NCBI GenBank assembly: GCA_002238565.1 | Contig: MPMP01000005.1 | Location: 23,916 to 87,915, forward strand | DNA from: Albidovulum sp. bin36 | Lineage (GTDB): Bacteria; Pseudomonadota; Alphaproteobacteria; Rhodobacterales; Rhodobacteraceae | DNA length: 64,000 nucleotides | Direction: 5' to 3' | In this document: piece by piece, positions 38,500 through 54,129 of the stretch | How positions within the stretch are numbered: position 1 is the first letter of the stretch | Layout of the letters: every line of letters begins with the position of its first letter | Translations under genes and position numbers: made by a program | Notes under the pieces: model-generated | Seen by the model: only the letters and a program-made list of their open reading frames with translations | The model's database searches: none | Told to the model about the DNA's origin: nothing

Positions 38500-41259
38500 T
38501 TATCCTGTCTGCGAATCGACCGCTATAAGCACGCCTGCATCCGATCCACGCCCTTTCAGATAGTTTACAATCTCCCTAGCGGCCGTTGCTGTGTCCTTCC
38601 GGGCCTGCACCCATTCCAACTGCACGGCCCGTTCCAGTGCATTGACCGCATCGCGGGAAAGTTTTCCCTCCGGCGGCAGCGCTTCGGAGTCTAGAAGACG
38701 CACTCTGCAAAGGCCCCCAAGAAGCAGGATCGCGTACCGAAATAAAGTGCGGTTGTAAATCTCATTATTCCATTCACCATCTACGAGTTGGTCCAAAACA
38801 CGTACGCTGAAACTAACCGCATGAACCAAGTTTTCGTGATTTTCCAATACAACCGCCGCTGCCGAATCTCTTCTACTGATAATGTGTGAGAGGCAAGCAA
38901 GCCGCTCAACTCGTTGTCCCGCCTTCTTCTGCCCAAGAATGAGTTGAACTACTCTTCTAATCCGAAGTGAATCGGAAACGGTACGTCCGAGACCATGATA
39001 ACATGCAACTGCCGCCGATGCATCCGTGGCTCCTAGTGGACCAGCCGGTCCAATAGACAAACCCATCGCGGCCTTCTCAACTTCTTCGATAATACGGTCC
39101 TGGATAGAGTCTGGACACCGCACAAAACACCATGTCGCCGGCAGATGTCGCCTGTTTGTCACTCCTATTCCTTCCACTGTGGGCTGCCGAATGAAAGCAT
39201 CCAGATCGGTGGCTAGCGCTTCCAAGACTCTGTTCAGCTTGTGTTCGATTCTTGTCAATTTCTCTTCACCGATCTGATCCTTTCCCGGTAATTGTCCCGA
39301 AGAACTCACTACGTATTTGCGCTGGTTGGGGATTCCAATTCCATTCAAAGAAGTCCTACTTAGCTTGCGGTACAGTCTGTCTCGAACATCTGCTTTGTCT
39401 TCGTAGGAGTGTGCGGACAGAAACGCGTCCAGCGCTACCTCGGTGCTCCGAGGCCCATGCCAAAAGCGGGGATATGCCTCGTACTCCACGAGATCCGGCG
39501 CAAGTCTGAAAGGACATGCCTGGCGCTGATCGCCGTCTCGGAAGAGATCGCTCCACCTGAAACGGAGAGGTGATCGTCGTAGCGGTTCGTAGCTTCTAGA
39601 GGAAACCGTGCAAGTAGCGAACCCTGAGACCGGTCGTTGTTCGGCATAAACCTGCACCTCGTACCTCGTTGGCGGATGCTCCTTCAGCGGTTGGATTTTT
39701 TCGCGTATCTCCTCTCCCTTCTTCAGCCTGAAGTCGAGGCATCGCATCCGTGCTGGTATCTCAAATAGGATCGGCTCCTGTGTTCGATAAGTCTTTCCCG
39801 CTTCGACGATCTCCCCCGCCGGTATTAGCGTAGACCAGTTTCGAGTTCCGTCAGGCTGTCTCGCCCAGAGATCGAGTTGCGGTAGGTGATCCAGATACGG
39901 GGCCTCGCCTCGTTCTAGGCGCCGTGCGGCTTCGAGTGCTCCCCAAGCAGCGCAGGCGGCATCGAGCTTCAAAGTATTTTCCGAGGAAACGCCTTGTTTC
40001 TCCAAGGCCAGCTCCAATGCTCGTGCCATTGTGCAGCCCGCGGGTGAGTACAGCAGCACATATCTGGATTCTTTAGCGGCGTGTACCGCCTCCTCCGGCA
40101 GCGGTTCCTCGTGAAACGGTGATGGCTGCCCGATTGCGATCTTCTTCCAGGTTCCCGTATCGTCTCGTATGGCATTCTGAGCGTCGAAATGCCCTAGGGT
40201 GCTTTCCCCGGAAGCAATGCTCTCGACCAATCTCGTCTGCCGATGGAGAAGTTCCATTGCCTCGTGTCCGCTAACTGCCTGGATCTGCCTTCGGATCTCG
40301 TGAATTCTAGCGGTCCAATCCCCTTTCCATTTCAGCCGCTGACCATACTCCTTTCGTTCTGGGAGCAATTTTCCCTTCCACTCGTGGAGCAAGAGTTGTT
40401 GGGTCTCAACTCCTTTCGTTCCGGCGATTAACACTACGAGGGAAATTGGTTTACTTGAGTTGTCTCGGGCTTGTTGCAGTATCCTTCTTGCTCGACTCGC
40501 AGCGGCAATTTCGTGGTGCTTTGTTCTCTCGTTCAGGATTCCGAGAACGACGGCGACTGGCCGCCAGAGAAGGTCAATGGTGCATCCGCCCAACCTTGTT
40601 CGAGCGAGTTCATCAAGGATTCGCGCCTGCGCGGCTTCGTCTATCGCCGGGACATCGGATACAACAAGCACAGCACGTCGGGCGCTGGGTGCTGTACCCA
40701 TTACCCCGGCCCGTAGCGCTTCGCCCAGAGTAGGCCTGCGAACTGGCTCTAGGTTGTCGCGGGTTGCTGCGTCGGTCCCTGGCTCTCGCTTGTTCCGTGC
40801 TCGATCACTTTCCCCAATATTGTTTGCGGCTAGGAGCAGGGCGGAGTTGCGCTCCGATGTTGAACCCGGACGACGTTCGCCCTTGGCATACGGTGCAGCC
40901 GATTGCGTTAATTCGTCGCCATGTAGATTGGCGTCGCTGCCGCCTTCCGGTATTTCCCATAGGCCACCTTCGATTTCCTCCCAAATTTGGCAAAACTCGA
41001 GACGGCGATCGGGATCGCCCACATGCTCGCCGTATCCGGCTCCGCGACCGTAAGGCGAGCGCTCTGCCTGCGGCCCTGCAATGACATCACCGAGTTGTTC
41101 CGTGTCGTCGATTCGGGCAGCGACGGAACGCCATCCGAACCGGTTGCAGTGCACCTCCTCGGACTCGTCGGGCGCATGCCCGGGCTCCCGCGCGCAAAAA
41201 TCTTGAAGACCGTTCAGATCGAGGCCTGCCAGGGTCTTCGTTCGACGCTCCTTCTTCAT
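38500..41259 (-). CDS. large (about 919 aa) protein with a degenerate Hsp70/actin-fold-like N-terminal region and a helical C-terminal region; fifth gene of the candidate defence operon
   Basis: Start placed at ATG 41259 (ATGA overlap with the upstream stop); ATG 41280 is the alternative. Motifs occur in Hsp70 order: LAGLDLNG, VLVVSDVPAIDEAAQARILDELARTRLGGCTIDLLWRPVAVVLG, LVVLIAGTKGVE, YVLLYSPAGCTMARAL. Coding status is strong; the fold call is by eye only. Confidence 0.6.
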   Translation of the reverse strand: MKKERRTKTLAGLDLNGLQDFCAREPGHAPDESEEVHCNRFGWRSVAARIDDTEQLGDVIAGPQAERSPYGRGAGYGEHVGDPDRRLEFCQIWEEIEGGLWEIPEGGSDANLHGDELTQSAAPYAKGERRPGSTSERNSALLLAANNIGESDRARNKREPGTDAATRDNLEPVRRPTLGEALRAGVMGTAPSARRAVLVVSDVPAIDEAAQARILDELARTRLGGCTIDLLWRPVAVVLGILNERTKHHEIAAASRARRILQQARDNSSKPISLVVLIAGTKGVETQQLLLHEWKGKLLPERKEYGQRLKWKGDWTARIHEIRRQIQAVSGHEAMELLHRQTRLVESIASGESTLGHFDAQNAIRDDTGTWKKIAIGQPSPFHEEPLPEEAVHAAKESRYVLLYSPAGCTMARALELALEKQGVSSENTLKLDAACAAWGALEAARRLERGEAPYLDHLPQLDLWARQPDGTRNWSTLIPAGEIVEAGKTYRTQEPILFEIPARMRCLDFRLKKGEEIREKIQPLKEHPPTRYEVQVYAEQRPVSGFATCTVSSRSYEPLRRSPLRFRWSDLFRDGDQRQACPFRLAPDLVEYEAYPRFWHGPRSTEVALDAFLSAHSYEDKADVRDRLYRKLSRTSLNGIGIPNQRKYVVSSSGQLPGKDQIGEEKLTRIEHKLNRVLEALATDLDAFIRQPTVEGIGVTNRRHLPATWCFVRCPDSIQDRIIEEVEKAAMGLSIGPAGPLGATDASAAVACYHGLGRTVSDSLRIRRVVQLILGQKKAGQRVERLACLSHIISRRDSAAAVVLENHENLVHAVSFSVRVLDQLVDGEWNNEIYNRTLFRYAILLLGGLCRVRLLDSEALPPEGKLSRDAVNALERAVQLEWVQARKDTATAAREIVNYLKGRGSDAGVLIAVDSQTG

Positions 41260-42866
41260 GGTATCGCGTCCTGTAGCCATGCCTCGATGTGTTCTCCGAA
41301 GTGATCCATTGGCTTGGTTAACTCGCTGCCCGGTTCAAAGGCCGCGCGCATGAGCCGTGCGTCTCGTCGTGTCGACTCCGGCTCACTGCCGCTTCTATCG
41401 AACACCGAGCGCAGAGCAACGCCATACACCTTGCCGAGTGACTTCTCCTTACGCTCAATGAGGTCGCACGTACGCTCAAGGCCCGCAAGATCTTCATCCT
41501 CTGTGGCTTTGCGAAAGCTGTGCAGCGCGTAGATTGGCATCCGTCCAAAGGTCCGTCCGTTCCAGGACTTGACGTGAAGGGAGGCGGCTGTTCCCGGCAG
41601 TCGGCCTTGATCGCTGTCCATCATGGGTGAATGCACCTCGATGGTCCACTGATGCCCACCTTTGACCGGGAAAAACACCATTGCGGGCTCATGTAACGCG
41701 ATCCACCTTCCCTCGCGCTGTTCGTTACGTGCTTGGAGTGGCATTTCTGCAAGGGGCGTCATGAGTTGCGTTTGCATCCGACATGCCACCAGAGCAAACA
41801 AGAAGCAGAATTCATCCCAGCTGCGGCTCTGCCAGATCCACACCAAATCTCTTGCCCGGTCGTGCCTTATCAGCGCTTGCCAAGCGGCCCAGACGGTCTG
41901 GTACCGCGCGTCGTGCTGAAGAACGTAGTTGGGTGATACGCCCGGCTGAACGGTCCTCACACCGCGCAGTCGCAAGTCGCGGTCCAAAGTTCGGCATCGC
42001 CGGCGGTAAGCTGCGAGCAATTCGCGTTTCTTCGGATCCCGTACGACGTACTCTCCGACCAACCGCGTGCTCATCTCCGCGACCGTCCGCAGGGTCCGGT
42101 TCTCAAGGGTGTCGAGGTTCTCCTCGCGCACCGGCGCGAGTATTGTCTGCCGGGTGCCGGCGCGCTCCGCAGTATCGCGTCCGGGCTGCTTCAAGAGCCA
42201 GCGGAGGGTCCGATCATCCATCTCCGTCGCAGCGCCGACTGGGACAGTTCGGTGCACTCTGCGCAGCACCTTGCGCGGGCTTGCGGATAGATCGGCCAGC
42301 ACCGGATGGAGCGTTCGGGCGTGCTCGACCAGCACCTCCATCGTTGGCTCGTAATCCTGACCGTACGGATCCAAAAACGCTTCGTCGACCCACTGCCAGA
42401 CTCCATTCGCCGTCTTCTCCATCCATCGCTCAACCGCGTGGATCCGCCCAGAGAGGGTCCAGATTGCCGTTAGCCATCGCTCGTTTGATCGCCCAGCGTC
42501 TTTGATTGCATGCTTGCTTGCGTGTGGTTTTTCGAGAACATCGCGGTGCCATTCGATGCCCCTGAATGATTTACCACGGTTGTCTTCGATGCGTAGCGTA
42601 TGCTTGAGACGGGAGGATATCGGAACTTGATAGATCCGGAAGCCCTCCAAGGCACCGCCCGCCTCTCCAACCATGGCGAGCATGATGCGTTTTCCGGCGC
42701 TTACGTTTTGCGGAGGCGGGCACTTTGACGCCGGCAGGTACTTCCACGCTATGAGGGTATCGGCGTCCGCAGGGGTGGACTGTGGTTTCCAACTCGCCTC
42801 GTTGTAGAGCGCCTCCGCGAGATCCCAAACGCCTGCGAGAGCGAAGGCGTGTGGCTCCAAACTCAT
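41256..42866 (-). CDS. McrC/DUF2357-like partner of the McrB-like ATPase
   Basis: 536 aa. LDTLENRTLRTV resembles the McrC/DUF2357 DTxENR-hhK motif. SWDEFCFLFALV resembles the helix preceding the PD-(D/E)xK core. ATGA overlap with the upstream AAA+ gene. Confidence 0.65.
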   Translation of the reverse strand: MSLEPHAFALAGVWDLAEALYNEASWKPQSTPADADTLIAWKYLPASKCPPPQNVSAGKRIMLAMVGEAGGALEGFRIYQVPISSRLKHTLRIEDNRGKSFRGIEWHRDVLEKPHASKHAIKDAGRSNERWLTAIWTLSGRIHAVERWMEKTANGVWQWVDEAFLDPYGQDYEPTMEVLVEHARTLHPVLADLSASPRKVLRRVHRTVPVGAATEMDDRTLRWLLKQPGRDTAERAGTRQTILAPVREENLDTLENRTLRTVAEMSTRLVGEYVVRDPKKRELLAAYRRRCRTLDRDLRLRGVRTVQPGVSPNYVLQHDARYQTVWAAWQALIRHDRARDLVWIWQSRSWDEFCFLFALVACRMQTQLMTPLAEMPLQARNEQREGRWIALHEPAMVFFPVKGGHQWTIEVHSPMMDSDQGRLPGTAASLHVKSWNGRTFGRMPIYALHSFRKATEDEDLAGLERTCDLIERKEKSLGKVYGVALRSVFDRSGSEPESTRRDARLMRAAFEPGSELTKPMDHFGEHIEAWLQDAIP

Positions 42867-44932
42867 CCGCCGTGTCCCTGCCGGTCAAGCCCACCCCAGG
42901 CGAAGAGGCCCCGCTCTTCGCCTGCGGAGATATCGCGTCGTATCGCTTCCTCTAGATTCTGATCCTGAAGCGTCTCGGTGGTGTACTGCATGAGCTCCTT
43001 CAGCGATTGCTCTGTCGCGGGGTCCGCGAGATCCACGCCACGAAGCTTAGGCAAAACGCGCATTTCGACCTGATCCGCGATCGCGAGCCGCCAATCGCCA
43101 GCATTGGGGTACTGCTGTGCGTAGCGTTCAATTGCCTGCGCCATGCGGTGCCCGAAGCCCCGCTGTATCCGTCCCAAAATCCGGTTCAGATTTTCGATCG
43201 CAGTCTCGATACTCTCGCTATCGACGTGTTGTCCGCAATCGTTGATCCATCGGTCCCATTGCGCGGCATTGAGATAGCCGCTTGCAGGGTCGGTATCATG
43301 CGTGCTGTCTCCACCGAACTCGAGCTTCTCCGGCCGAGTGAAACGCAGAACGTTTGAACGGTCGAGGACCTTGTCTGAGAGGGTCTGGGTGCTCTCGTCT
43401 TCGTTCATCGTGCCCGCGAAGAGGACCCGGTATCCGGCGTAGATCCGTCGTGCAGTACCGTTGCTTTCCGCGGGGATATCGAGTTCAATCTCTGCGTCCG
43501 CACGCCGTGCAGGGTTGCTGTTCTCATTGCGATGAGGGCGCATTTCCAATCGACTCAGGAAGTCTGAGAAGTAATACTCCGTGCGCGCCAGGTTCATCTC
43601 GTCCAGCAACACCAGCGCCATTCGGTTTTGCCACTCATGGGCTATGTCCGGCCAGTTCTCGGAGTCTAGGTGCGCGAGCAGGCGCGCAAGATCTGTAGCC
43701 CGGTACCGCTTGTCGACGAAGTTATAGAATCCCATTAGATCCTGCGGGCTGTCCCATCTCGGTTGCACCGGAACCTGAAGGAAGTGAATCCCCATAGCCG
43801 CCGCATAAGCGCGGGGGAGTTGGCTCTTTCCGGTACCGCTGATTCCCGCTAAAACGGTCATCGGTGATATGTCCGCCACCTTGAGCGCGGTATGGAAGGC
43901 GTAGATTGTGCGTTGTCCGAATGTCAGTCCCGCTTGCCTCAACGATTCTTCTACCGCGCTAAGGGATTCTCTCTCGCTCCTTGCGCCGAGCGGTCTTTTC
44001 CACCCGCTGTTCTTGGCTGCAACAAGACACTGCGGGGGGCGAGTAAGCTCCGCTAGTTTGTCGTCATCACCGTCCTTCCTCGTCGGCTGGAGTTGCGCAC
44101 GCTGTTCTATTAGGTCTTGGAGTTCTGCGTCCAACTTTGCCGTGCGCGCCTCGAGCTCGGACCGGCGTTTCTGAAACTCATTAATCTTGTCGTCCAACTC
44201 TCGAGCTTCCTGGCGAGCGACCGCCGAGGCGGCGGCGACTACAACGAGGTCCGCGCGCAGTTCGCCAAGCCTCTGTTCTGCAGATTTCGCTTCGGCTTCG
44301 GCAACCTCCCGTTGGGCTCGACGCGCCTCGATTTCAGCATCGAGTCGGACGACTTCGCGCTCGCATTCCAGCAGGCGCCCGCGGAGGGAATCCTCTTGTG
44401 CGAGGAGAGTTTCCAGTTCGGCTGCCTCGGTTCGGAGTTTCGAGGTCTTATCCGAAAGAGACTTGTGGCGCTCGGTCAATTCGTCGATTTCGTCAACAAG
44501 GCGGCGAGCCTGAGAAAGCTCTGTTTGAGCATGCTCAAGTTCAGCCATCTTCTCCGCAAGGTTCCGAGTGGCGTCCGCGTGTCGCGCGGTGGCCTCTTCG
44601 GTTTCCCCGCGGACTGCAAGGACTTCCTGACGCTTTTCCTCCAACGTCTTGTGCTCGGCGAGCAATTCCTCTTTTTGACGTGCTAGAGCATCGACATCAG
44701 CCTGCATCCCGGCAATGTTAGCGAGAGCTTCACGTCGCTGCTTGAGGTCGTCGTCGAGATCGACGAGCGTTCCGCGTTTCGTTTCGATTTGACGGTCGAG
44801 TTCTTCGAGCGTGGCCATCGGCCCGCGGACCGTGGCCTGGTGATCCGCGCGAGCCGCAACGAGCACCGTGACGAAGATAAGCGTGGCAAGTCCGAATGCG
44901 GCAATGAGAACTGTGAGAACGAGAGGATCCAT
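42863..44932 (-). CDS. membrane-anchored coiled-coil protein fused to a McrB-like AAA+ (AAA_5) NTPase domain
   Basis: 689 aa. N-terminal hydrophobic helix LVLTVLIAAFGLATLIFVTVLVAA, then about 270 aa of heptad-rich sequence. Then Walker A LAGISGTGKSQL, Walker B LVLLDEMNLARTEYYFSDFLS, and GTMNEDESTQTLSDKVLDRSNVLRF (equivalent to the McrB NTAD...RRF region). Confidence 0.8.
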   Translation of the reverse strand: MDPLVLTVLIAAFGLATLIFVTVLVAARADHQATVRGPMATLEELDRQIETKRGTLVDLDDDLKQRREALANIAGMQADVDALARQKEELLAEHKTLEEKRQEVLAVRGETEEATARHADATRNLAEKMAELEHAQTELSQARRLVDEIDELTERHKSLSDKTSKLRTEAAELETLLAQEDSLRGRLLECEREVVRLDAEIEARRAQREVAEAEAKSAEQRLGELRADLVVVAAASAVARQEARELDDKINEFQKRRSELEARTAKLDAELQDLIEQRAQLQPTRKDGDDDKLAELTRPPQCLVAAKNSGWKRPLGARSERESLSAVEESLRQAGLTFGQRTIYAFHTALKVADISPMTVLAGISGTGKSQLPRAYAAAMGIHFLQVPVQPRWDSPQDLMGFYNFVDKRYRATDLARLLAHLDSENWPDIAHEWQNRMALVLLDEMNLARTEYYFSDFLSRLEMRPHRNENSNPARRADAEIELDIPAESNGTARRIYAGYRVLFAGTMNEDESTQTLSDKVLDRSNVLRFTRPEKLEFGGDSTHDTDPASGYLNAAQWDRWINDCGQHVDSESIETAIENLNRILGRIQRGFGHRMAQAIERYAQQYPNAGDWRLAIADQVEMRVLPKLRGVDLADPATEQSLKELMQYTTETLQDQNLEEAIRRDISAGEERGLFAWGGLDRQGHGG

Positions 44933-47900
44933 CAGTCAGAGGAGCCTTCGTTGGTGGGTGGACGACCGGCGGTAGGTCCGTTCGGGTCGTTGTCGTCGGG
45001 GCTAGGTGATGGCACAGTTTCGGCAGCGGGAGGTTCGTCTTTCGGTGCTGTACGCTGATCCTCCATTGAGTGGAGGACTTCGCGCTTCTCGCGGATCTGT
45101 TCATCAAGCATGTGGAGCATCGTTCGGGACTCCGTTGCGGTCCGCTCCAGTTCCTTTAGCGTCTCTTGGAGTGTGTTCTGTCGAGTTTCCAAGGCTGGAA
45201 TCAGCGCTTCCAACTCGGTGTTGCGCTCTTCCAGTCGTTTAACTGCCGCGCGCTGTTCGGCCGCCTCGGCACGAGTTGCCGCGAAATCTCTCTCGGCCCG
45301 GTTCAAATCTTCCCCAGCTGCGACGCGCTTCGCTTCGATGTCGTTCCGTCTCTCTTCGAGGACCGAGAGGTCTTCACGAATGGAAGCTACTTGCATCTGG
45401 AGATCCTTGATACGAATCTTGTATTCTTCGATCTGACTCCTCAGACTTGCCAGTTCCGTGGATCGCTGCGCTGTTTGCCCCTCGAGGGAGGCGCTTGCGA
45501 CGCGTGCTTCCTCAAGGGCTTGCTGTCCCGCTGCCTGCTCGGCGGCGAGATCGCGAACCTCGATCATCAGTGCATCTTTGCGCTCTTGCAAGGTGTCGGC
45601 ATCGGCTTGAATGCGTCGAAGCTGGGTTTGGGCATCGGTTCGTCGTGTTTCGGTCTCCGCCAGACTCTGCTCCAGCGCGTCCAACTCGGTCTGCCGCTCC
45701 GCAATTCGAGCCTCGGTGTCGGTCCGGGCCTGTCGTACCTCACCTAACCGTTCTAGCTCGGCTGCTATCTCACCCCGGAGTGTCTGCAATTCGGTACTGG
45801 TTTGATTCACCGACAGCCGCTGGGAGTCGAGTCGACTCTCGATGGAAGCTTCTTGCGTCTGGATATCCTTGATGCGAATCTTGTATTCTTCAATCTGACT
45901 CCTCAAACTTGCCAGTTCCGTGGATCGCTGCGCTGATTGCCCCTCGAGGGAGGCGCGTGCGACGCGTGCTTCCTCAAGGGCTTGCTGTCCCGCTGCCTGC
46001 TCGGCGGCGAGATCGCGAACCTCGATCATCAGTGCGTCTTTGCGCTCTTGCAAGGTGTCGGCGTCGGCTTGGATGCGTCGAAGCTGGGTTTGGGCATCGG
46101 TTCGTCGTGTTTCGGTCTCCGCCAGACTCTGCTCCAGCGCGTCCAACTTGGTCTGCCGCTCCGCGATTCGAGCCTCGGTGACGATCCGGGCCTGCAGTAC
46201 CTCATCTAACCGTTCTTGCTCGGCTGCTTTCTCACTCCGGAGAGTCTGCAATTCGGTATTGGTTTGATTCACCAACTGCTGCTTGGTGTCGAGTGGACCC
46301 TCGATGGAAGCTTCTTGCGTCTGGAGATCCTTGATACGAATCTTGTATTCTTCGATTTGACTCCTCAAACCTGCCAGTTCCGTGGATCGCTGCGCTGTTT
46401 GCCCCTCGAGGGAGGCGCGTGCGACGCGTGCTTCCTCAAGGGCTTGCTGTCCCGCTGCCTGCTCGGCGGCGAGATCGCGAACCTCGATCATCAGTGCATC
46501 TTTGCGCTCTTGCAAGGTGTCGGCGTCGGCTTGGATGCGTAAAAGCTGGGTTTGGGTATCGGTTCGTCGTGTTTCGGATTCCGCCAGACTCTGCTCCAGC
46601 GCGTCCAACTTGGTCTGCCGCTCCGCGATTCGAGCCTCGGTGACGGTCCGGGCCTGCCGTACCTCATCTAACCGTTCTTGCTCGGCTGCTCTCTCACCCC
46701 GGAGAGTCTGCCATTCGGCATTGGTTTGATTCACCAACTTCTGCTTGGTGTCGAGTCGACCCTCGATGGAAGCTTCTTGCGTCTGGAGATCTTTGATACG
46801 AATCTTGTATTCTTCGATTTGACTCCTCAAACTTGTCAGTTCCGTGGATCGCTGCGCTGATTGCCCCTCGAGGGAGGCGCGTGCGACGCGTGCTTCCTCA
46901 AGGGCTTGCTGTCCCGCTGCCTGCTCGGCGGCGAGATCGCGAACCTCGATCATCAGTGCATCTTTGCGCTCTTGCATGGTGTCGGCGTCGGCTTGGATGC
47001 GTCGAAGCTGGGTTTGGGCATCGGTTCGTCGTGTTTCGGTCTCCGCCAGACTCTGCTCCAGCGCGTCCAACTTGGTCTGCCGCTCCGCGATTCGAGCCTC
47101 GGTGACGGTCCGGGCCTGCCGTACCTCATCTAACCGTTCTTGCTCGGCTGCTATCTCACCCCGGAGAGTCTGCAGTTCGGTACTGGTTTCATTTACCAAC
47201 AGCCGCATGGTGTCGAGTCGAACCTGGAGACCATTTGCCTCGCGCAGTCGCCCCTCAAGGGCCGCTACGTTTTTCTGCAGATCGTCCCGATGTGCAATGA
47301 GCGAGACGACTTCCTCTACCAGTGCGGCTCGGCGTTCGGTGGTTGTCCCAATTTCGGTGGCGATTTCATCCTTTTCTGCTTGGGCGGCTTGAATTCCCGC
47401 GAGTATGCCGGTGCGCTGTTCCTCTGCTCCTGCCCGACGGGCTTCGGCGGCCTTGGCTTCTGAGTTCACTCCCGCGAGCGTGGCGCGGGCGGTACTGAGC
47501 TCCAGTTCCACGTCTTCGAGACGGCGCTGCTCCCTTGCCAGCCTGCTCACCTCAGCTTGCAACTGATCTCGATCAGCCGTCAGTCGATCACGCTGCGAAA
47601 CCAGATCGTCTCGCGCCATCTCCGCAGTCGCGGCGGATTGTTCGGCTCTCGCGCGGCGATCCTCAATCTCCTCGATTTCTGAAAGGAGTGCGTCGCGTCG
47701 AGTCTCAGCCTTCAGAAGGGCGTCTCGCGTCGACGAGAGGTCAGCCTGAACCCGCTCTCGTGTTGCGAGGCTGTCCTGGATGTCTTGTTCCTCGTCCCGT
47801 AGCTCCGAGAGCTTTTTTCTCGCATCCTGCACCGCGATTTCCAAGCTGCCGAGTTCGGCGCGTGCGGCCTGGGCGAGGCGCAACTCGCTTCCAAGCTGCG

Positions 47901-48135
47901 TAAGCTCCGTCCGGAGGGTGTCGCGACGGTCGGCAAGCTCGGCAATCTCAGACCGGTCCGCTGCCAGAGCCTTCTCTATGCGGGCACGGTCATCTCGAAT
48001 GGCACCGAAGTTGCCTTCGAGTTCATTAACCTTCCACACAAGAAAGCCCAGCAGGCCAATTGTCGCCAGCGCGGCGAGACCCGCGGTCCACGTATATGCG
48101 CGGGACTTACGAAAGGTCTCGTTCGATGAGGTCAA
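44932..48135 (-). CDS. giant (1067 aa) coiled-coil protein with an N-terminal hydrophobic anchor, four 154-aa tandem repeats and a Pro/Asp-rich tail
   Basis: TTG start at 48135 with GGAGAG 5 nt upstream. Anchor YTWTAGLAALATIGLLGFLVWKV. Almost continuous E/R/A/L/Q-rich heptad-like sequence. Tail ...PKDEPPAAETVPSPSPDDNDPNGPTAGRPPTNEGSSD. Confidence 0.85.
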   Translation of the reverse strand: MTSSNETFRKSRAYTWTAGLAALATIGLLGFLVWKVNELEGNFGAIRDDRARIEKALAADRSEIAELADRRDTLRTELTQLGSELRLAQAARAELGSLEIAVQDARKKLSELRDEEQDIQDSLATRERVQADLSSTRDALLKAETRRDALLSEIEEIEDRRARAEQSAATAEMARDDLVSQRDRLTADRDQLQAEVSRLAREQRRLEDVELELSTARATLAGVNSEAKAAEARRAGAEEQRTGILAGIQAAQAEKDEIATEIGTTTERRAALVEEVVSLIAHRDDLQKNVAALEGRLREANGLQVRLDTMRLLVNETSTELQTLRGEIAAEQERLDEVRQARTVTEARIAERQTKLDALEQSLAETETRRTDAQTQLRRIQADADTMQERKDALMIEVRDLAAEQAAGQQALEEARVARASLEGQSAQRSTELTSLRSQIEEYKIRIKDLQTQEASIEGRLDTKQKLVNQTNAEWQTLRGERAAEQERLDEVRQARTVTEARIAERQTKLDALEQSLAESETRRTDTQTQLLRIQADADTLQERKDALMIEVRDLAAEQAAGQQALEEARVARASLEGQTAQRSTELAGLRSQIEEYKIRIKDLQTQEASIEGPLDTKQQLVNQTNTELQTLRSEKAAEQERLDEVLQARIVTEARIAERQTKLDALEQSLAETETRRTDAQTQLRRIQADADTLQERKDALMIEVRDLAAEQAAGQQALEEARVARASLEGQSAQRSTELASLRSQIEEYKIRIKDIQTQEASIESRLDSQRLSVNQTSTELQTLRGEIAAELERLGEVRQARTDTEARIAERQTELDALEQSLAETETRRTDAQTQLRRIQADADTLQERKDALMIEVRDLAAEQAAGQQALEEARVASASLEGQTAQRSTELASLRSQIEEYKIRIKDLQMQVASIREDLSVLEERRNDIEAKRVAAGEDLNRAERDFAATRAEAAEQRAAVKRLEERNTELEALIPALETRQNTLQETLKELERTATESRTMLHMLDEQIREKREVLHSMEDQRTAPKDEPPAAETVPSPSPDDNDPNGPTAGRPPTNEGSSD
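45380..47225 (-). repeat. four tandem in-frame copies of a 462-bp (154-codon) unit inside the coiled-coil gene
   Basis: The landmark TTGTATTCTT recurs at 45419, 45881, 46343 and 46805 (period exactly 462). In the protein, SQIEEYKIRIKD and LDEV.QAR..TEARIAERQT.LDALEQSLAE.ETRRTD.QTQL each occur four times. Copies differ by scattered substitutions. Confidence 0.95.
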
Positions 48136-51100
48136 GACAACTCTCCAAGTCCTTGTCCAACTCGTCCACCCAGAAGCGCCGGACCTTCCAGCCGAGGGAA
48201 TGCAGCTGGTGATCCCGCCAATGGTCGTCCAACTTGCGGTTACCGTCGATGTCCTGGTGCCAGCGGCGTCCGTCGACTTCGATGTCGATCCTTATGCCGC
48301 TTGCGCCGAACACGGCGAAATCGAGCCGGCGACCCGCGATCTCGTATTGTGGTTTGGGATCCAAGCCGCGGGCGCGCAACGCTTCGTAGACCCGACGTTC
48401 CCAAGTGCTGTCGAAAACTCCTTCGTCGGGTGGTTGGCGCGATTCGGTGGCACGAGCGGCGAGGCTTTGCAATCGCCGCACGGTTCCTCTACGAGCAAAG
48501 TCAAGATCGCCGAATACATGGGCGATCGCACGCGCCCGGCTGATTGCCACGTTCAGGCGCCGCCAGTCTTTCTGAAGGAAAGAGATTGCGCTTGGAGCTA
48601 TTCGGTCGTGAAGGACAGGCGAGAACAAGATCAAGTCCCGTTCCTGGCCCTGGAATGCGTCAACCGTGCCCACACGCAAGTTCGCGGCGTGTCGGCGATT
48701 CTCAGGGATATGCGTGGTGATGGCCTCGGCCAGAGCCGCTACCTGTGGACGAAAGGGAGAGATCACACCGACACTACCATCGTAATCGTGCTTGAGAAGA
48801 AGTTGCTCAAGGTGTGTGACGATGGCGCGAGTTTCCGCTGCATTAACATTGCCGCGTGCAGTCTCTACTCCAGTAGCCGGCGGAACGTGCGTCCAATGGA
48901 GGCCAGGGCGTGTGGTGGTTGGTACGCGCAATCCATCTTGGTCGGCAGCGACACGAAGCTTGCCGCCGTAGAAATCCTGGTTAATGTAGGCAACGATATC
49001 GGCCGCCGAGCGGTACTGATCTCGCAGCATCACTGCGGGAACGTCCGGGTTGGATCGAGCGAGATCAAACAGGCTCTTGCGGCTCTGCGCGAACCGCCCC
49101 ATCCCAGTCTGGGGCAATTGCTGCGCCGCCATCAGGTTTCGGTCCTTTGCGATGCCGACCTGAGGGATAAAGGCGAGTTGTCTGTCGTCACCTACGATGA
49201 CGGCGCGACGCGCACGGGCGAGAACCGGCAGCGCGGATCCAATGTCGCATTGGCTCGCCTCATCGAAGATCGCCAGATCGAACAATCCGTCTTCCAGTGG
49301 GAGCCGTCTCGGCGCTCCGAGGACGGAGGCGAGCCAGAGCGGTCGATGCAGCAGCACGCTCTTGGCTAACTCGCGGTCTACCGCGATGTGACCGTGCAAC
49401 TGAAGATCGTCGTGGGCGTTGGAGAGTGCCAAACGCGTTCTTTCGTCTGGAGTGCTGAGGGCCGTGACACGGCGGCCGAGTACTTGCCGAGCCAACGACG
49501 CAATCTCTTGAGTTGACGTGACTGGGTTTTCTATGGGGCCAAAATTCGCGAGACTAGCGCGTGTTTCAGCTACTCGTTCCCGGAGCGCCACCGTCGGGAT
49601 CGTGCCGTCATCCATATCTGGAGTGGCGAGTGACGGCGCGAACCCAAGCCAACTGAGCAGCCGGCGCCAAAATCCCGATGATGACGGTTCGGCCACCAAT
49701 ACGGTCGTATCCGGGAGACCGGCGAGCTGCCGGGATTGCAAACGCTCAATATCGTCGGCAAGTTGGAGGCGGAGTCTTCGCTCCCTCGCGATCCGCTCAA
49801 GTGTATCCAAGCGCGCGTTGGCCCGCTTGTCGAGTTCTGCCGAGACATCGGACTCCGGAGCGGCGACACTCGTCCCTGCGGGCTCGGAGACGAGATCGCG
49901 AAGCACGCCGGCCATGTCGCGGTCTACGTCACGGGCGGGGTCGAGCGTGCGCACGATGAAAGATGCGCCGGGAGCAATGCTGGACAGGCGCTGTTCGACT
50001 GCATCCAGGGCTTGATGGTTCTTGGATGCGACGATTACTGTTTGCCCGGCCCAAAGTGCAGTCGTGGCAATGGCTACGATCACTTGGCTCTTCCCGGTGC
50101 CGGGCGGCCCGGTTACGACTGAGAGGGGGGTGCGCATTGCTTGGGCGGTTGCCTCGATCTGCTCCATGTTGAGCGGACCGACATTGACCGGTGGAACTGG
50201 ATTGACAGGTGCCTGATTGGGCAGACCAATGAGCGGTGCGAGGGCGGTACGGCAGAGGCGATCAGACGGCCAAGCGGCAATGGAATCGAGATCGCGTACC
50301 GCGCCTGCGGTGAAGGTGGAACCCAATGACAGGAACAGGGCGACGGCATCGTGGATTCCTGTTTCGCTAGGGTCAACCATGGCGGCGAAGCTGTTGCCCA
50401 CGAGGTTCCCCCTGATGGCGCGCGCTGCCGCCTCACGAAGTCGCCCGAGAAACTCCTCGCCCGGCAGTCCTGATCCTCCATTCCCGCGGAAGAGGTTTTG
50501 AAGTTCGCTCCGTGTCCACGCGGTGACCCGCGCCGTACTCCGCACCCAATCGGGATTCACGAGGACATCGTCGGCGTCAACTCGCAGTTCGATGAAGTCT
50601 CCTTTCCGGCTCCACACAGCAGCGAGAAGCCCGACCGGTCGGATCGCCGGGGCGCCAGATTGACGCCCCAGATCCAGCGGCCAGCCCAAAGCGACTCCGT
50701 TCTCTTCGTCATCGCGCCGGATCATCGCCTCGCGGAAGGCACCTGGTAGGTCGTCGGCCCGAATTCGTACAATGACTTCCTCGTCGCTTGCCGGAAACAG
50801 GTTTCCTTCGCCGGCAAGAAGTTGGAAGGTTTCACCATGGCGGTCGCCGGTCTGAGTCAGAGCCCCTCGTGGGTCGTACAGGAGCGCGGATTTGTAGTAG
50901 CGGAGCAACGCGTGGGGATCGAACTCGGATTCCGATGCGGCTGAGTCTTCGTCAGGTAGCACATCTGCCGCTACCGGCTTTGTGGTGAAGGTGGCTGGCG
51001 AGGCGATCAGAGGATCGGAAGGCGCGTTGCCGGAGTGGACTGGACGCAGTGCCGAGGTTGAGGACGGCGCGAGGGGTCGGTGCTGGGCACGCCATCGATG

Positions 51101-51262
51101 ATCACGGCCTAACGAGACCACGCCCCTGGCTTGCAATTCAGCAAGTTCTCGGCCAACGGCCTCCCGCCGCGCACCATCGAACGCAACGTCGAGCAGGACC
51201 ACCAACTCGTTGGTGGTTCGACCCAGTGGAAATGCCTCGATCGTCTTCAGCAGGAGCGACAT
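48107..51262 (-). CDS. SF1 (Upf1/DNA2-like) helicase with an N-terminal winged-helix-like segment and a C-terminal DUF559/Vsr-like endonuclease domain
   Basis: 1051 aa. VTGPPGTGKSQ (motif I), AIFDEASQC (II), VIVGDDRQL (III), VDAFQGQERD (V), RRLNVAISRAR (VI). C-terminus YEALRARGLDPKPQYEIAGRRLDFAVF...IDIEVDGRRWH...LGWKVRRFW. Confidence 0.85.
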   Translation of the reverse strand: MSLLLKTIEAFPLGRTTNELVVLLDVAFDGARREAVGRELAELQARGVVSLGRDHRWRAQHRPLAPSSTSALRPVHSGNAPSDPLIASPATFTTKPVAADVLPDEDSAASESEFDPHALLRYYKSALLYDPRGALTQTGDRHGETFQLLAGEGNLFPASDEEVIVRIRADDLPGAFREAMIRRDDEENGVALGWPLDLGRQSGAPAIRPVGLLAAVWSRKGDFIELRVDADDVLVNPDWVRSTARVTAWTRSELQNLFRGNGGSGLPGEEFLGRLREAAARAIRGNLVGNSFAAMVDPSETGIHDAVALFLSLGSTFTAGAVRDLDSIAAWPSDRLCRTALAPLIGLPNQAPVNPVPPVNVGPLNMEQIEATAQAMRTPLSVVTGPPGTGKSQVIVAIATTALWAGQTVIVASKNHQALDAVEQRLSSIAPGASFIVRTLDPARDVDRDMAGVLRDLVSEPAGTSVAAPESDVSAELDKRANARLDTLERIARERRLRLQLADDIERLQSRQLAGLPDTTVLVAEPSSSGFWRRLLSWLGFAPSLATPDMDDGTIPTVALRERVAETRASLANFGPIENPVTSTQEIASLARQVLGRRVTALSTPDERTRLALSNAHDDLQLHGHIAVDRELAKSVLLHRPLWLASVLGAPRRLPLEDGLFDLAIFDEASQCDIGSALPVLARARRAVIVGDDRQLAFIPQVGIAKDRNLMAAQQLPQTGMGRFAQSRKSLFDLARSNPDVPAVMLRDQYRSAADIVAYINQDFYGGKLRVAADQDGLRVPTTTRPGLHWTHVPPATGVETARGNVNAAETRAIVTHLEQLLLKHDYDGSVGVISPFRPQVAALAEAITTHIPENRRHAANLRVGTVDAFQGQERDLILFSPVLHDRIAPSAISFLQKDWRRLNVAISRARAIAHVFGDLDFARRGTVRRLQSLAARATESRQPPDEGVFDSTWERRVYEALRARGLDPKPQYEIAGRRLDFAVFGASGIRIDIEVDGRRWHQDIDGNRKLDDHWRDHQLHSLGWKVRRFWVDELDKDLESCLDLIERDLS

Positions 51263-51413
51263 CGAAGAATTCCCAGTTCTGAAGTATGCCCCTTAAGTAG
51301 ATCGAAGCATGTGCGGTGGGCCACGGACACTGAATCGTGCCTCGTTATCGACAAGTCGGCAAAGGCAGCCAGAGTTTGAGTGTGACGAAGGTATGAGTCG
51401 ACGGCTGCCCAAG

Positions 51414-51842
51414 TCATGCCTGCGCAACCGACCAGGGATTGATTACATCCACGCCAATGCCGTCGAAATCCCGCACGTTGCGCGTAACTAGGACGGCGCC
51501 CTTCGAGCGGGTTATCGCGGCGATCTGGCAGTCGGCTTCGCCGATCGGGCGACCTGCGAAGCGGCGGTCTGCAGCAATGCCGGCATAGGCGCGGGCGGCG
51601 GCGCTGTCGAACGGCAGGATGCGTTCCGAGAAGCCGAAGTCGAGCCACCGGGTCATGGCAGCCACTAGCCTGTCCCGGCGCCTGCCTGCCGGCATGATCG
51701 CGATGCCGTAAAGAAGCTCCGCTTCGCTGACCGCAGTCAGGTACATGTACATTGCATCCTGATCCGCGATCCAGGCAGCCATGGCAGGAGCCGGTTCCGG
51801 GCGCATAAGTTCGGAAACCACGTTCGTGTCAAGCACCAGCAT
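51414..51842 (-). CDS. vapC: PIN-domain toxin VapC/FitB
   Basis: MLVLDTNVVSELMRPEP...LTAVSEAELLYG...DCQIAAITRSKGAVLVTRNVRDF. Confidence 0.88.
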   Translation of the reverse strand: MLVLDTNVVSELMRPEPAPAMAAWIADQDAMYMYLTAVSEAELLYGIAIMPAGRRRDRLVAAMTRWLDFGFSERILPFDSAAARAYAGIAADRRFAGRPIGEADCQIAAITRSKGAVLVTRNVRDFDGIGVDVINPWSVAQA

Positions 51843-51852
51843 CCGATGCGCC

Positions 51853-52098
51853 TCAAGAGAAGTCCGGAGGCTCGCGCATCGGGCCGCGCGGGGGCAGGTC
51901 TAGCTCGACCCCGCCAAGGGGTGCGAAACACTCCCGGGTGAACTCCGCCAAGTTCCGGGGGGCGGACTGGCTGTCGCTCACGGCCTCGCGAAGGATGATA
52001 CGCACCTCCTCTTCCATTGAGCGGCTGTGCGCGGCGGCGCGGACGCGCAGGCGCGTACTCACGTAGTCATCGAGATTGCGGATGGTGATGCTTGCCAC
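51853..52098 (-). CDS. vapB: VapB/FitA-type ribbon-helix-helix antitoxin
   Basis: 81 aa. (M)ASITIRNLDDYVSTRLRVRAAAHSRSMEEEVRIILREAV. GTG start with GGAGG 8 nt upstream. Ends 10 nt upstream of vapC. Confidence 0.82.
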   Translation of the reverse strand: MASITIRNLDDYVSTRLRVRAAAHSRSMEEEVRIILREAVSDSQSAPRNLAEFTRECFAPLGGVELDLPPRGPMREPPDFS

Positions 52099-53204: not shown

Positions 53205-53633
53205 CTACAGGCTGCCGTAATATTCGGCCAGGGATTCCTTCGGAATGATTTCGTTGCCGCGTTTACCGTCAGTAATTCCGCGCCGCGCCAACTGCCAGGG
53301 ATCCTCCATATGAGTAAGATCGCTCAGCCATTGCGGAGATTTGTCCCCGTAGAACTTCAGCACTGCGTCGACAGTCTCGCGCTGGGTTTCAGTCAAGTTT
53401 TCCGGGCGGCCATTGCGAAGAGAGGAGATTCGATAATCGCCGCGATGGGTTTCGTAGAGCTCTCGCACCACCGGCCCGTTGGCCCATGCCTCGATCTCTT
53501 CGGGAAAAAGGATGTCATCGTCCCACACGAGCGACCATGCCTGGCAGTAGTAGACCAGCTTCTGCAGCTTCCATGTGGTCATAGGACCCTGCCGCTTGAG
53601 TATGCAGGCGGCTACATCGAAAACACGGACCAT
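53205..53633 (-). CDS. Panacea (DUF4065, SocA/GepA-like) antitoxin-domain protein
   Basis: Internal ATG at 53633 of track ORF 53205..53732. MVRVFDVAACILKRQGPMTTWKLQKLVYYCQAWSLVWDDDILFPEEIEAWANGPVVRELY. Confidence 0.75.
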   Translation of the reverse strand: MVRVFDVAACILKRQGPMTTWKLQKLVYYCQAWSLVWDDDILFPEEIEAWANGPVVRELYETHRGDYRISSLRNGRPENLTETQRETVDAVLKFYGDKSPQWLSDLTHMEDPWQLARRGITDGKRGNEIIPKESLAEYYGSL

Positions 53634-54129
53634 TCTGCTGGCCTCGGTATGTGGAAGCCGACACAATCGAAGGTCGACGAGATAGCCATCGGTAATGGCT
53701 TTTCTTGAAGGAAACAACCTAATCGAGGACATCGTCGACGACAGAGATCAAGTGCTGCGCAAATGCTTTGCGAAATTCGGAATCGCCCGAGGGAGATTGA
53801 AAATTTTTGCGTTCTCGATAATCGAATTGAGGCAGCTTGTCTGTCGAATCTTTCCTGCAGGCACCACTGCCCGCGCGTGTCGGTGGCTGGGTAAAATCAC
53901 GGGATACTTGCGATTCGGCGCGCTTTGGCCGGATCACGGCTAAGTGTCCTTGAAACCGATCTTGCGAACGGCAATTGCACCGGTTGCGATTATCGGTAAC
54001 GGATCGGATGCAATTCGGTGCATGTCGCTCTGCGCTGTAGCTTCCCGGCAGGTCATTTTCGCTACTCGGACTAGGCTCTCATGCAGGGCTTCGCAGCGAA
54101 CACCGTGAAACCCTGCGCGGCTGGCAAAG

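What the first reader, a model, noticed from the sequence alone, without database searches (positions are those of the whole stretch)
45380..47225. Four near-identical 462-bp in-frame tandem repeats build the middle of the giant coiled-coil protein
The period is exactly 462 bp (154 codons, 22 heptads): the same landmark recurs at 45419, 45881, 46343 and 46805. The copies are highly similar at the DNA level, differing only by scattered substitutions that cluster in the last third of each unit. This argues for recent duplication or ongoing gene conversion rather than ancient coiled-coil periodicity. Each unit should add a fixed length of rod, so copy number could act as a length or spacing variable, or as a rapidly evolving surface, in the putative defence complex. 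Repeats like this are also prone to assembly collapse or expansion.
Basis: seen in the sequence. Interest (0 to 1): 0.7.

Follow-up and report, generated by a model that had tools for sequence, protein, structure and literature searches.

The report
Length-expanding repeats in a defence-system rod protein
Four real, recently duplicated 154-residue units double the length of CnuA, the stand-alone coiled-coil protein of a predicted Type III-B CoCoNuT (McrBC-like) anti-phage operon; relatives have lengthened the same rod independently by other in-frame, heptad-compatible duplications, so its length is unusually free to change.

Summary
Window 45380-47228 holds exactly 4.00 in-frame copies of a 462-bp unit (93-96% nt identity, no indels) inside a 1067-aa minus-strand gene (44932-48135).

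Copy number is not an assembly artefact. Two independent short-read contigs tile all four units at 100% identity in a unique register. All 14 other contigs examined break inside the array.

The gene is cnuA of a five-gene cnuH-A-B-C-D operon. The operon matches the published Type III-B CoCoNuT architecture (NxD McrB-like GTPase, DUF2357 McrC, UPF1-like helicase fused to a Vsr-like nuclease).

The array is lineage-specific. The closest orthologue (operon dS about 0.1) has 3 x 165 aa with a different junction. Others have 2 x 186, an old 2 x 154, or one copy.

Across about 60 related loci, long-period tandem arrays are strongly enriched in cnuA. All are in frame, and 15 of 17 periods are 0, 3 or 4 mod 7. 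In the window one heptad register runs unbroken through every junction.

Not supported: ongoing gene conversion (substitutions are mostly private to one unit), and a positively selected surface (dN/dS is about 1 and core positions are not spared).

What the extra length does is untested.

The parts
45380..47228 (-). Tandem array: 4.00 copies of a 462-bp (154-codon, 22-heptad) unit. In gene orientation U1 = 47229-46768, U2 = 46767-46306, U3 = 46305-45844, U4 = 45843-45382.
44932..48135 (-). cnuA: 1067-aa stand-alone coiled-coil protein. TTG start overlaps the cnuH stop by 29 nt. This start and the N-terminal motif (M)TSSN..RK.R are conserved in distant homologues.
47122..47229 (-). Fast-evolving segment (unit codons 1-36) of U1. 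Equivalent segments: U2 46660-46767, U3 46198-46305, U4 45736-45843. 21 nonsynonymous vs 2 synonymous variable columns.
48028..48084 (-). N-terminal hydrophobic helix of CnuA (aa 18-36, mean KD 1.85), preceded by a conserved basic motif. Putative membrane anchor.
47236..47238 (-). Conserved heptad discontinuity (stammer) at aa 300, just before the array. The AF2 helix breaks at 300-301. It marks the start of the length-variable distal rod.
44935..45054 (-). Acidic, Pro-rich C-terminal tail of CnuA (aa 1028-1067), predicted disordered.
48107..51262 (-). cnuH: SF1 UPF1-like helicase (AAA_11/AAA_12) with a fused C-terminal Vsr-like REase_MTES_1575/DUF559 nuclease.
42863..44932 (-). cnuB: N-terminal hydrophobic helix (aa 8-26), ~260 aa of coiled coil, and a McrB-like AAA_5 GTPase. 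Walker A GISGTGKS, Walker B LLDEMN and signature N-E-D-E (NxD) are invariant.
41256..42866 (-). cnuC: McrC homologue (DUF2357, 24.4 bits against a cut-off of 23.3).
38500..41280 (-). cnuD-position gene: 926 aa, no Pfam hit. N-terminal GLDLNG motif and a helical C-terminal part. Sub-threshold profile hits to Hsp70-family Ssz1 and to helical-repeat proteins.
38500..51491 (-). Extent of homology with the Thalassobaculaceae MAG locus L001: the five-gene cassette plus ~230 bp upstream. The flanks are unrelated.

Best explanation
The array is a real, lineage-specific amplification inside cnuA. CnuA is the separate coiled-coil component of a Type III-B CoCoNuT (coiled-coil nuclease tandem, McrBC-derived) defence operon, cnuH-cnuA-cnuB-cnuC-cnuD.

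Shown:
- One founding duplication created the junction ...QEAS|IEG.... The three junctions are the same, so later copies came from amplifying that unit.
- This happened at about the time of, or after, the split from the closest known orthologue. That orthologue made its own array from a different junction, 11 codons away, across a GC(T/C)AAGCG microhomology.
- The four copies have since diverged independently by ~5%. Most changes are private to one unit, so there is no homogenisation.
- The unit is exactly 22 heptads. One heptad register runs from the conserved stammer at aa 300 through all junctions to the C-terminal tail.
- Family-wide, the distal part of CnuA has been lengthened repeatedly and independently. 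These duplications are in frame, and their periods are almost always 0, 3 or 4 mod 7, the shifts a coiled coil tolerates.
- Partner proteins keep constant lengths.

Inferred:
- The distal CnuA rod is a self-associating spacer or tether, not a segment paired residue-for-residue with a partner. Its length is adjustable rather than fixed.
- With the usual rise of ~0.148 nm per residue, each unit adds ~23 nm. The window allele is therefore ~69 nm longer than a single-copy allele, and the helical part is ~147 nm in all.
- Codons 37-154 of every copy remain under purifying selection (dN/dS 0.3-0.5 in most pairs), so the extra copies are expressed and constrained.
- Codons 1-36 evolve near neutrality.

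Whether the extra length changes defence activity is unknown.
For: Array and frame.

Independent confirmation of four units.

Operon identity:
- Pfam and PADLOC hits.
- Invariant NxD-E signature.
- Published Type III-B description.
- H-A-B-C-D order conserved in 44 or more loci and on rhizobial plasmids.

Lineage specificity:
- L001 has 3.0 copies of a 495-bp unit.
- P0001 has 2 x 186 aa, P0002 an old 2 x 154 aa, P0003 a single copy.
- Unit tree and junction sequences.
- Operon dS 0.06-0.13 against inter-unit dS 0.04-0.09.

Family-wide pattern:
- 9 of 14 long-period arrays lie in cnuA, which is 10% of the DNA (P=1.6e-6).
- All coiled-coil arrays are in frame.
- Periods mod 7 fall in {0,3,4} for 7 of 7 cnuA arrays (P=0.003) and 15 of 17 overall (P=1.5e-4).

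Register: continuous in the window; the P0001 junction forms a stutter.

Structure: AF2 gives a near-continuous helix from aa 13 to 1027.

Length:
- No CnuA-CnuB length correlation (rho 0.09).
- Family median 492 aa, maximum 730.
- No representative longer than 776 aa among 1.84 billion proteins.

Selection.

No conversion mosaic.
Against: - No experiment or structure shows what CnuA does, or that its length matters. The wide length range (about 300-1067 aa) with constant partners fits selectively neutral tolerance equally well.
- Oligomeric state and orientation (parallel dimer or antiparallel hairpin) are unknown. The AF2 model is a monomer with a 4-sequence alignment and mean pLDDT 62, so the nanometre figures are conditional.
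- The heptad assignment comes from my own simple scoring scheme, not a calibrated predictor.
- Two older, protein-level-only repeats have periods 233 and 120 aa (2 and 1 mod 7).
- Type III-B membership could not be checked against the paper's own sequences, and the Hsp70-like nature of CnuD was inconclusive.
Confidence: 0.7

Rival explanations
1. Neutral by-product. Repetitive coiled-coil DNA is prone to slippage and unequal crossover, and a rod with free ends tolerates insertions. The four units would then be selectively meaningless extra length that has not yet been lost.
For: - Very wide CnuA length range with constant partner lengths, and no CnuA-CnuB length correlation.
- Part of each unit evolves at dN/dS of about 1.
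- Similar arrays also occur in the CnuB coiled coil of other lineages.
Against: - Codons 37-154 of all four copies stay under purifying selection (dN/dS 0.3-0.5 in most pairs).
- The array has stayed intact for ~5% divergence and is identical in many assemblies.
- Frame and heptad phase are preserved in essentially all arrays. This shows selection on foldability at least, though a neutral-length model also predicts that.
Confidence: 0.3
2. Diversifying recognition surface. Each unit carries a fast-evolving 36-residue patch, and four diverged patches give a multivalent, rapidly evolving binding or sensing surface.
For: - In unit codons 1-36, 21 of 23 variable columns are nonsynonymous against 17 of 27 in the rest (Fisher p=0.024).
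- Pairwise dN/dS is 1.3-4.5 there.
- It is also the segment with the highest dN between orthologues.
Against: - Between orthologues dN/dS is 1.0, not above 1.
- The excess over neutrality among units rests on very few synonymous sites.
- Substitutions hit core a/d positions as often as expected (11 of 32 against 9.1).
- There is no diversity-generating machinery (reverse transcriptase) in the operon and no adenine-specific mutation pattern.
Confidence: 0.12
3. Assembly artefact. The true locus would have one copy or a different number, and the four units would come from mis-assembly.
For: All 14 short-read contigs reaching cnuA terminate in the array. One contig end (L088) is a U1/U4 hybrid.
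Against: - Units differ by 20-31 nt and each has 8-17 private changes. A mis-assembled duplicate would be identical.
- Independent contigs from different samples reproduce 3.41 units and 1.40 units at 100% identity, and overlap uniquely to give exactly four.
Confidence: 0.03
4. Ancient periodicity kept uniform by ongoing gene conversion (concerted evolution), rather than recent duplication.
For: Units cluster by genome, which concerted evolution could also produce. An older internal 77-aa half-repeat exists (35% identity).
Against: - The window and L001 arrays have different junctions, periods (154 and 165 aa) and copy numbers.
- A single-copy orthologue exists.
- 44 of 49 biallelic columns are private and there are no shared conversion tracts.
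Confidence: 0.03

Closest known systems
Type III-B CoCoNuT system: CnuH, CnuA, CnuB, CnuC, CnuD (Bell et al., eLife 2024, PMC11090510)
   Same: - Five-gene layout.
- UPF1-like SF1 helicase with a directly fused Vsr-like nuclease.
- A separate coiled-coil protein with no other Pfam domain.
- A coiled-coil-fused McrB-like GTPase with the NxD(E) signature.
- A DUF2357 McrC homologue.
- A separate large fifth gene.
- Alphaproteobacterial carriers.
   Different: The paper's text does not mention any of the following:
- Tandem repeats or length variation in CnuA.
- N-terminal hydrophobic helices in CnuA and CnuB, found here in 54/64 and 65/68 loci.
- The conserved (M)TSSN..RK.R N-terminus of CnuA.

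The window's CnuA is about twice the family median length.
CoCoPALM systems: NxD McrB GTPase fused to an FtsB-like transmembrane plus coiled-coil domain (same paper)
   Same: CnuB here also starts with a hydrophobic helix followed by a coiled coil, ahead of an NxD GTPase.
   Different: The operon has no signal-peptidase or pilus-assembly genes. It has the helicase-nuclease, CnuA and the fifth gene instead.
Canonical E. coli McrBC (Type IV restriction)
   Same: A AAA+ (AAA_5) NTPase paired with a DUF2357/McrC partner.
   Different: - NxD instead of NxxD.
- The DNA-reader domain is replaced by a hydrophobic helix plus coiled coil.
- Three extra components.
Length-variable rod and ruler proteins built from tandem repeats: streptococcal M proteins, injectisome ruler YscP, phage tape-measure proteins, Lpp (own knowledge, not tested here)
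   Same: In-frame tandem duplications change the physical length of an elongated helical protein. Unequal crossover between repeats generates alleles.
   Different: In those cases length has a demonstrated read-out (needle, tail or periplasm dimension, or antigenic variation). For CnuA no read-out is known. CnuA belongs to a nuclease/NTPase defence operon.
Zorya ZorA long coiled-coil tail (own knowledge)
   Same: A defence system that combines a membrane-embedded component with a long helical tail and separate helicase/nuclease effectors.
   Different: No sequence relationship was tested or seen, there is no ZorB-like stator, and CnuA membrane insertion is only predicted.

Membership tests
Type III-B CoCoNuT | CnuB is a McrB-like GTPase with an NxD (not NxxD) signature, often followed by E/D | tested here: met
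   GTMNEDEST is invariant in 4 orthologues and was usable as a scan pattern that retrieved 359 relatives. AAA_5 hit is weak (E=0.0017). PADLOC PDC-M26A hit at 4e-45.
Type III-B CoCoNuT | Long coiled coil fused N-terminally to the CnuB GTPase | tested here: met
   Coiled-coil family hits over aa ~27-282. Heptad tracking over aa 30-290.
Type III-B CoCoNuT | CnuC is a McrC homologue with a DUF2357 N-terminal domain | tested here: met
   PF09823, E=1.9e-5, 24.4 bits against a cut-off of 23.3. RefSeq annotates the rhizobial homologues as DUF2357.
Type III-B CoCoNuT | CnuH is a UPF1-like SF1 helicase with a Vsr-like PD-(D/E)xK nuclease fused directly to it | tested here: met
   AAA_11 1e-14, AAA_12 6e-34, REase_MTES_1575 1e-14 and DUF559 5e-7 at aa 955-1049.
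Type III-B CoCoNuT | Separate coiled-coil protein CnuA with no other recognisable domain, encoded between cnuH and cnuB | tested here: met
   Only sub-threshold coiled-coil family hits. AF2 gives a helix from aa 13 to 1027. Position conserved in ~60 loci. Extra feature: an N-terminal basic motif plus hydrophobic helix.
Type III-B CoCoNuT | Separate CnuD with an Hsp70-like NBD/SBD and HEAT-like repeats | tested here: inconclusive
   A gene of the right size and position is conserved. A 30-sequence profile gives only sub-threshold hits to Hsp70-family Ssz1 chains (E 0.2-0.4) and to helical-repeat proteins. No Pfam hit. The single-sequence AF2 model failed (pLDDT 34).
Type III-B CoCoNuT | CnuB GTPase falls in the III-B clade of the published tree | not testable with these tools
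   The Type III-B sheet of the paper's sequence supplement is not held.
Type III-B CoCoNuT | Sul7s-like wHTH at the CnuH N-terminus | not tested
   The N-terminal ~60 aa look wHTH-like by eye only.
CoCoPALM | Association with signal-peptidase-family or pilus-assembly genes | tested here: not met
   None in the operon or its conserved relatives.
Canonical McrBC | NxxD signature and an N-terminal DNA-binding reader domain in McrB | tested here: not met
   The signature is N-E-D. The N-terminus is a hydrophobic helix plus coiled coil.

The most novel reading that the evidence does not exclude
CnuA is a membrane-anchored rod of adjustable length, lying on the opposite side of the membrane from the CnuB GTPase.

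In 48 of 54 CnuA proteins the conserved basic N-terminus is more positive than the segment after the hydrophobic helix. By the positive-inside rule this predicts N-in, with the rod outside. In CnuB the bias is reversed in 38 of 57.

Type III-B CoCoNuTs would then be trans-membrane devices. An extracytoplasmic coiled-coil sensor or tether changes length by unequal crossover between units. The U1/U4 hybrid contig end hints at a co-existing shorter allele. The rod would be coupled through paired transmembrane helices to a cytoplasmic GTPase/nuclease/helicase effector.
Probability: 0.12. Interest if true: 0.75.

Novelty: new variant of a known kind. Interest (0 to 1): 0.45.

Why it matters
CoCoNuTs are a large family of McrBC-derived defence systems, so far described almost entirely by prediction. 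The only experimental report I found concerns a Type II-like locus (bioRxiv 10.64898/2026.04.06.716636). Nobody knows what their coiled coils do.

Coiled-coil length is usually more conserved than other protein regions (PMC5082667). CnuA does the opposite. Close relatives form a natural series of 603, 736, 791, 939 and 1067 aa, made by independent heptad-compatible duplications, while all partner proteins keep their length.

This has three uses:
- It gives a ready-made allelic series for testing whether the rod acts as a spacer, tether or sensor.
- It argues against residue-for-residue pairing of the distal CnuA rod with CnuB.
- It shows that cnuA is routinely broken in short-read assemblies, so surveys will under-count and mis-size it.

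The family-wide hydrophobic N-terminal helices in CnuA and CnuB, with opposite charge bias, are a further testable lead that the original description does not mention.

Tried and rejected
1. In-register parallel CnuA-CnuB heteroduplex. CnuB discontinuities (aa 75, 101, 142, 180) do not match those of CnuA (88, 126, 203, 300), and the lengths do not co-vary. Not supported.

2. Gene conversion. Site patterns are star-like or tree-like.

3. Diversity-generating retroelement. There is no reverse transcriptase in the operon and no adenine-specific pattern.

4. Word-index protein search with the non-repetitive N-flank. It returned nothing, not even the known homologues, so it was uninformative. The exhaustive phmmer search replaced it.

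5. BLASTP mapping of repeats onto the single-copy homologue. It over-extended through the coiled coil, so junctions were mapped by landmarks and DNA instead.

6. Fourier analysis of hydrophobicity. Power was low and uninformative.

7. AF2 of CnuD from a single sequence. Unusable, pLDDT 34.

8. The paper's supplement for Type III-B reference sequences. The sheet is not held.

9. Positive selection on the variable patch. Suggestive among units, but dN/dS is 1.0 between orthologues and the core is not spared.
Full report
OBSERVATION

Tandem Repeats Finder reports one array at 45380-47225: period 462, 4.0 copies, 94% matches, no indels. An offset-462 identity scan of the gene gives 45380-47228, which is 4.002 copies.

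The array lies in frame in a minus-strand ORF, 44932-48135, encoding 1067 aa. In gene orientation the units begin at aa 303, 457, 611 and 765. They are 93.3-95.7% identical in DNA and 86-91% in protein.

Of 50 variable nucleotide columns, 23 fall in the first 36 codons of the unit.

IS THE COPY NUMBER REAL?

Each unit has 8-17 private substitutions. A mis-assembled duplicate would not.

The exact CnuB, CnuC and CnuH proteins of this window occur, with the same flanking genes, in 10-18 other contigs per protein. Sources include ENA MEGAHIT assemblies, NCBI GCA_026712665.1, several JGI metagenomes and a Logan assembly.

Every one of the 14 contigs that reaches cnuA, from either side, stops inside the array.

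The fragments nonetheless agree with the window:
- L085 covers 3.41 units plus the C-flank at 100% identity.
- L101 covers the N-flank, U1 and 0.40 of U2 at 100% identity.
- The two overlap by 375 nt with no mismatch in the correct register, and with 12 or more mismatches in any other register.

Four units are thus independently supported.

One contig end (L088) starts with U1-specific bases and switches to U4-specific bases across the 95-nt stretch where U1 and U4 are identical. That is the product expected from an unequal U1 x U4 crossover, giving a shorter allele. It could equally be a graph chimera. I treat it as a hint only.

WHAT THE GENE IS

The ORF belongs to a tightly packed minus-strand operon:
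- 48107-51262: an SF1 helicase (AAA_11, AAA_12) with a C-terminal REase_MTES_1575/DUF559 Vsr-type nuclease.
- 44932-48135: the coiled-coil protein.
- 42863-44932: a hydrophobic helix, ~260 aa of coiled coil and an AAA_5 NTPase.
- 41256-42866: a DUF2357 (McrC N-terminal) protein.
- 38500-41280: a 926-aa protein with no family hit.

This matches the Type III-B CoCoNuT of Bell et al. 2024 (PMC11090510). That type has CnuH with a directly fused Vsr-like nuclease, a separate CnuA with nothing but coiled coil, CnuB with a coiled coil and an NxD GTPase, CnuC, and a separate CnuD. It is mainly alphaproteobacterial.

The CnuB signature here is GTMNEDEST (N-E-D-E), invariant among orthologues.

The H-A-B-C-D order recurs in 44 or more metagenomic loci. 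It also occurs on finished plasmids of Rhizobium tropici CIAT 899, R. leguminosarum OyaliB and Sinorhizobium meliloti GR4, where the products are annotated only as hypothetical or AAA proteins. In R. leguminosarum the operon sits beside Shedu and a restriction endonuclease.

The Hsp70-like nature of CnuD could not be established. A 30-sequence profile gave only sub-threshold hits to Hsp70-family Ssz1 chains and to helical-repeat proteins. The single-sequence AF2 model failed.

The closest genomic relative is a Thalassobaculaceae MAG (L001). Homology with the window covers only 38500-51491, so the operon is a ~13-kb cassette in unrelated flanks.

THE ARRAY IS RECENT AND LINEAGE-SPECIFIC

CnuA homologues are rare. 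The first search found 3, and an exhaustive phmmer search of 1.84 billion representatives found 22, none longer than 776 aa.

All homologues examined sit in the same synteny. Their repeat content differs:
- L001 (operon 92-97% nt identical; dS 0.06-0.13) has 3.0 copies of a 495-bp (165-aa) unit.
- P0001 has two identical 186-aa copies.
- P0002 has an old, diverged duplication at offset 154.
- P0003 (603 aa) has a single copy.

In a unit tree the four window units form one clade and the three L001 units another.

The junctions differ. The window has ...QEAS|IEGRLD... at all three junctions. L001 has ...IEAKR|QLVKQ..., 11 codons downstream, formed across a GC(T/C)AAGCG microhomology. These are independent founding events followed by amplification.

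Inter-unit dS in the window (0.04-0.09) is similar to or slightly below the window-L001 dS. This dates the amplification to around or after that split.

Among the four units, 44 of 49 biallelic columns are private, three support U1+U4 | U2+U3, and one each supports the other two splits. The copies have therefore diverged independently, and there is no sign of ongoing gene conversion.

An older layer also exists. The two 77-aa halves of the unit are 35% identical, against 9-18% at other heptad-multiple offsets.

A FAMILY-WIDE PATTERN

A profile of CnuB retrieved 359 relatives from metagenomes, of which the best 80 loci were analysed.

The ORF directly upstream of cnuB has coiled-coil composition. 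Its median length is 492 aa and its maximum 730 aa (n=61), so the window's 1067 aa is the longest seen.

TRF over 1.03 Mb of these loci found 14 arrays with period 30 bp or more:
- Nine are in cnuA, which is 10.3% of the DNA (binomial P=1.6e-6).
- Three are in the coiled-coil part of cnuB.
- Three are elsewhere.

All coiled-coil arrays are in frame. Periods in residues for cnuA are 154, 165, 186, 52, 112, 70 and 60. All are 0, 3 or 4 mod 7 (P=0.003).

Adding the cnuB arrays and the weaker protein-level repeats gives 15 of 17 in {0,3,4} (P=1.5e-4) and 9 of 17 exactly 0 (P=2e-4). From established coiled-coil knowledge, these are the shifts a coiled coil accommodates: none, stammer or stutter.

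The arrays lie in the distal 20-90% of the protein, never in the N-terminal ~100 aa.

L038 and L039 have identical flanks and differ by exactly one 70-aa unit. That is either polymorphism or a short-read collapse.

STRUCTURE-LEVEL READING

A register-tracking Viterbi, using my own simple a/d scoring, gave these results:
- All five close orthologues share discontinuities at aa 88, 126, 203/206 and 300.
- In the window one unbroken heptad frame then runs from aa 300 through all four units and into the C-flank.
- P0001's 186-aa duplication creates a stutter exactly at its junction.

AF2 (monomer, 4-sequence alignment, mean pLDDT 62) gives helices at 13-299, 302-608 and 618-1027, and a disordered tail. 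Confidence dips at aa 300 and at the junctions or Gly motifs.

At ~0.148 nm per residue, each unit would add ~23 nm to a parallel coiled coil.

CnuA length does not correlate with CnuB length (rho 0.09, p=0.51), and the discontinuity patterns of the two proteins differ. The variable distal rod is therefore unlikely to pair residue-for-residue with CnuB.

SELECTION

Over whole units NG86 dN/dS is 0.6-1.6. For codons 37-154 it is 0.3-0.5 in five of six pairs. For codons 1-36 it is 1.3-4.5, or undefined.

The nonsynonymous to synonymous ratio differs between the two parts (21:2 against 17:10, Fisher p=0.024).

Between the window and L001 the same 36-codon segment has the highest dN in the protein (0.142), but dS is also 0.142. 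Variable codons fall on core a/d positions as often as expected (11 of 32).

I read this as relaxed constraint on that segment, and purifying selection on the remainder of every copy.

MEMBRANE HELICES (NOTICED, NOT PART OF THE FINDING)

CnuA begins with a conserved (M)TSSN..RK.R motif and a 19-aa hydrophobic helix. CnuB begins with a very conserved hydrophobic helix. These occur in 54 of 64 and 65 of 68 family members.

The charge bias is opposite. In CnuA the N-side is more positive in 48 of 54. In CnuB the C-side is more positive in 38 of 57. If both helices are true transmembrane segments, the positive-inside rule would put the CnuA rod outside the cytoplasm. This is unproven.

The text of the CoCoNuT paper mentions neither these helices nor any CnuA repeats.

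VERDICT

- Recent duplication: yes.
- Gene conversion: no.
- Length variation among orthologues: yes, and recurrent across the family.
- Rapidly evolving surface: weak.
- Functional meaning of length: untested.

The system is a member of a computationally described family (Type III-B CoCoNuT), carrying the most expanded CnuA allele known. The only experimental support I found for CoCoNuTs as defence systems concerns a Type II-like locus. The general literature holds that coiled-coil length is usually conserved, which makes the plasticity of CnuA a modestly interesting and testable feature.

Noticed in passing
window 48028-48084 (CnuA aa 18-36) and 44855-44911 (CnuB aa 8-26); family loci L005-L084: Both CnuA and CnuB start with a hydrophobic helix (54/64 and 65/68 family members). 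The charge bias is opposite: in CnuA the N-side is more positive in 48/54, in CnuB the C-side in 38/57. This suggests opposite membrane topologies. The CnuB helix sequence is nearly invariant among orthologues that are 54-56% identical overall. The CoCoNuT paper's text does not mention any of this.
   Followed up: partly
L088 (= L094) nt 1-300; corresponds to window ~45382-45686: The contig end is a U1/U4 hybrid unit. It has U1-only bases up to unit column 252 and U4-only bases from column 348. This is the product expected from an unequal crossover that deletes units, or an assembly chimera.
   Followed up: partly
L038 vs L039 (cnuA-position ORFs, 434 vs 364 aa): The flanking sequence is identical but the two differ by exactly one 70-aa unit. 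This is either copy-number polymorphism between near-identical strains or a short-read collapse.
   Followed up: partly
window 51414-51842 (PIN) and ~51853-52098 (FitA-like RHH), minus strand: A VapBC-type RHH-PIN toxin-antitoxin pair lies directly upstream of cnuH. The same pair precedes cnuH in the distinct lineage L002. Homology with L001 ends 78 nt inside the 3' end of the PIN gene. In L100 the RHH-PIN-cnuH block has a different upstream context.
   Followed up: partly
window 37355-37981 (-) and 53205-53732 (-): A Tn5-type transposase fragment (Dimer_Tnp_Tn5 only) lies just downstream of cnuD, and a SocA/Panacea-domain antitoxin gene lies upstream of the cassette. Both fit a mobile or defence-island setting.
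   Followed up: no
L048 7957-8595; L051/L054 2048-2837: In other lineages the coiled-coil part of cnuB itself carries in-frame tandem arrays: 70 aa x 3.0 at 97% identity, and 91 aa x 2.9 at 74%. Both periods are 0 mod 7.
   Followed up: partly
L001 ~8500-9100 (cnuA of the Thalassobaculaceae MAG): The L001 repeat copies contain local frameshift-like glitches (SKSGSWFGW for EERR; RSMATLV for RSTELV; a missing residue in IAALERL). These look like long-read indel errors, not biology.
   Followed up: no
L104 5406-7604 (R. tropici CIAT 899 pRtrCIAT899b): In this finished plasmid cnuH is truncated to 732 aa, with an IS21 element (istA/istB) immediately upstream. The system is probably inactivated there.
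   Followed up: no
window 32677-33828 (-): A CbiX-type cobaltochelatase has a long His-rich C-terminal tail (HGHRHGHSHHHGHDHGHAHDHHH). It is part of a cobalamin-biosynthesis cluster flanking the cassette.
   Followed up: no
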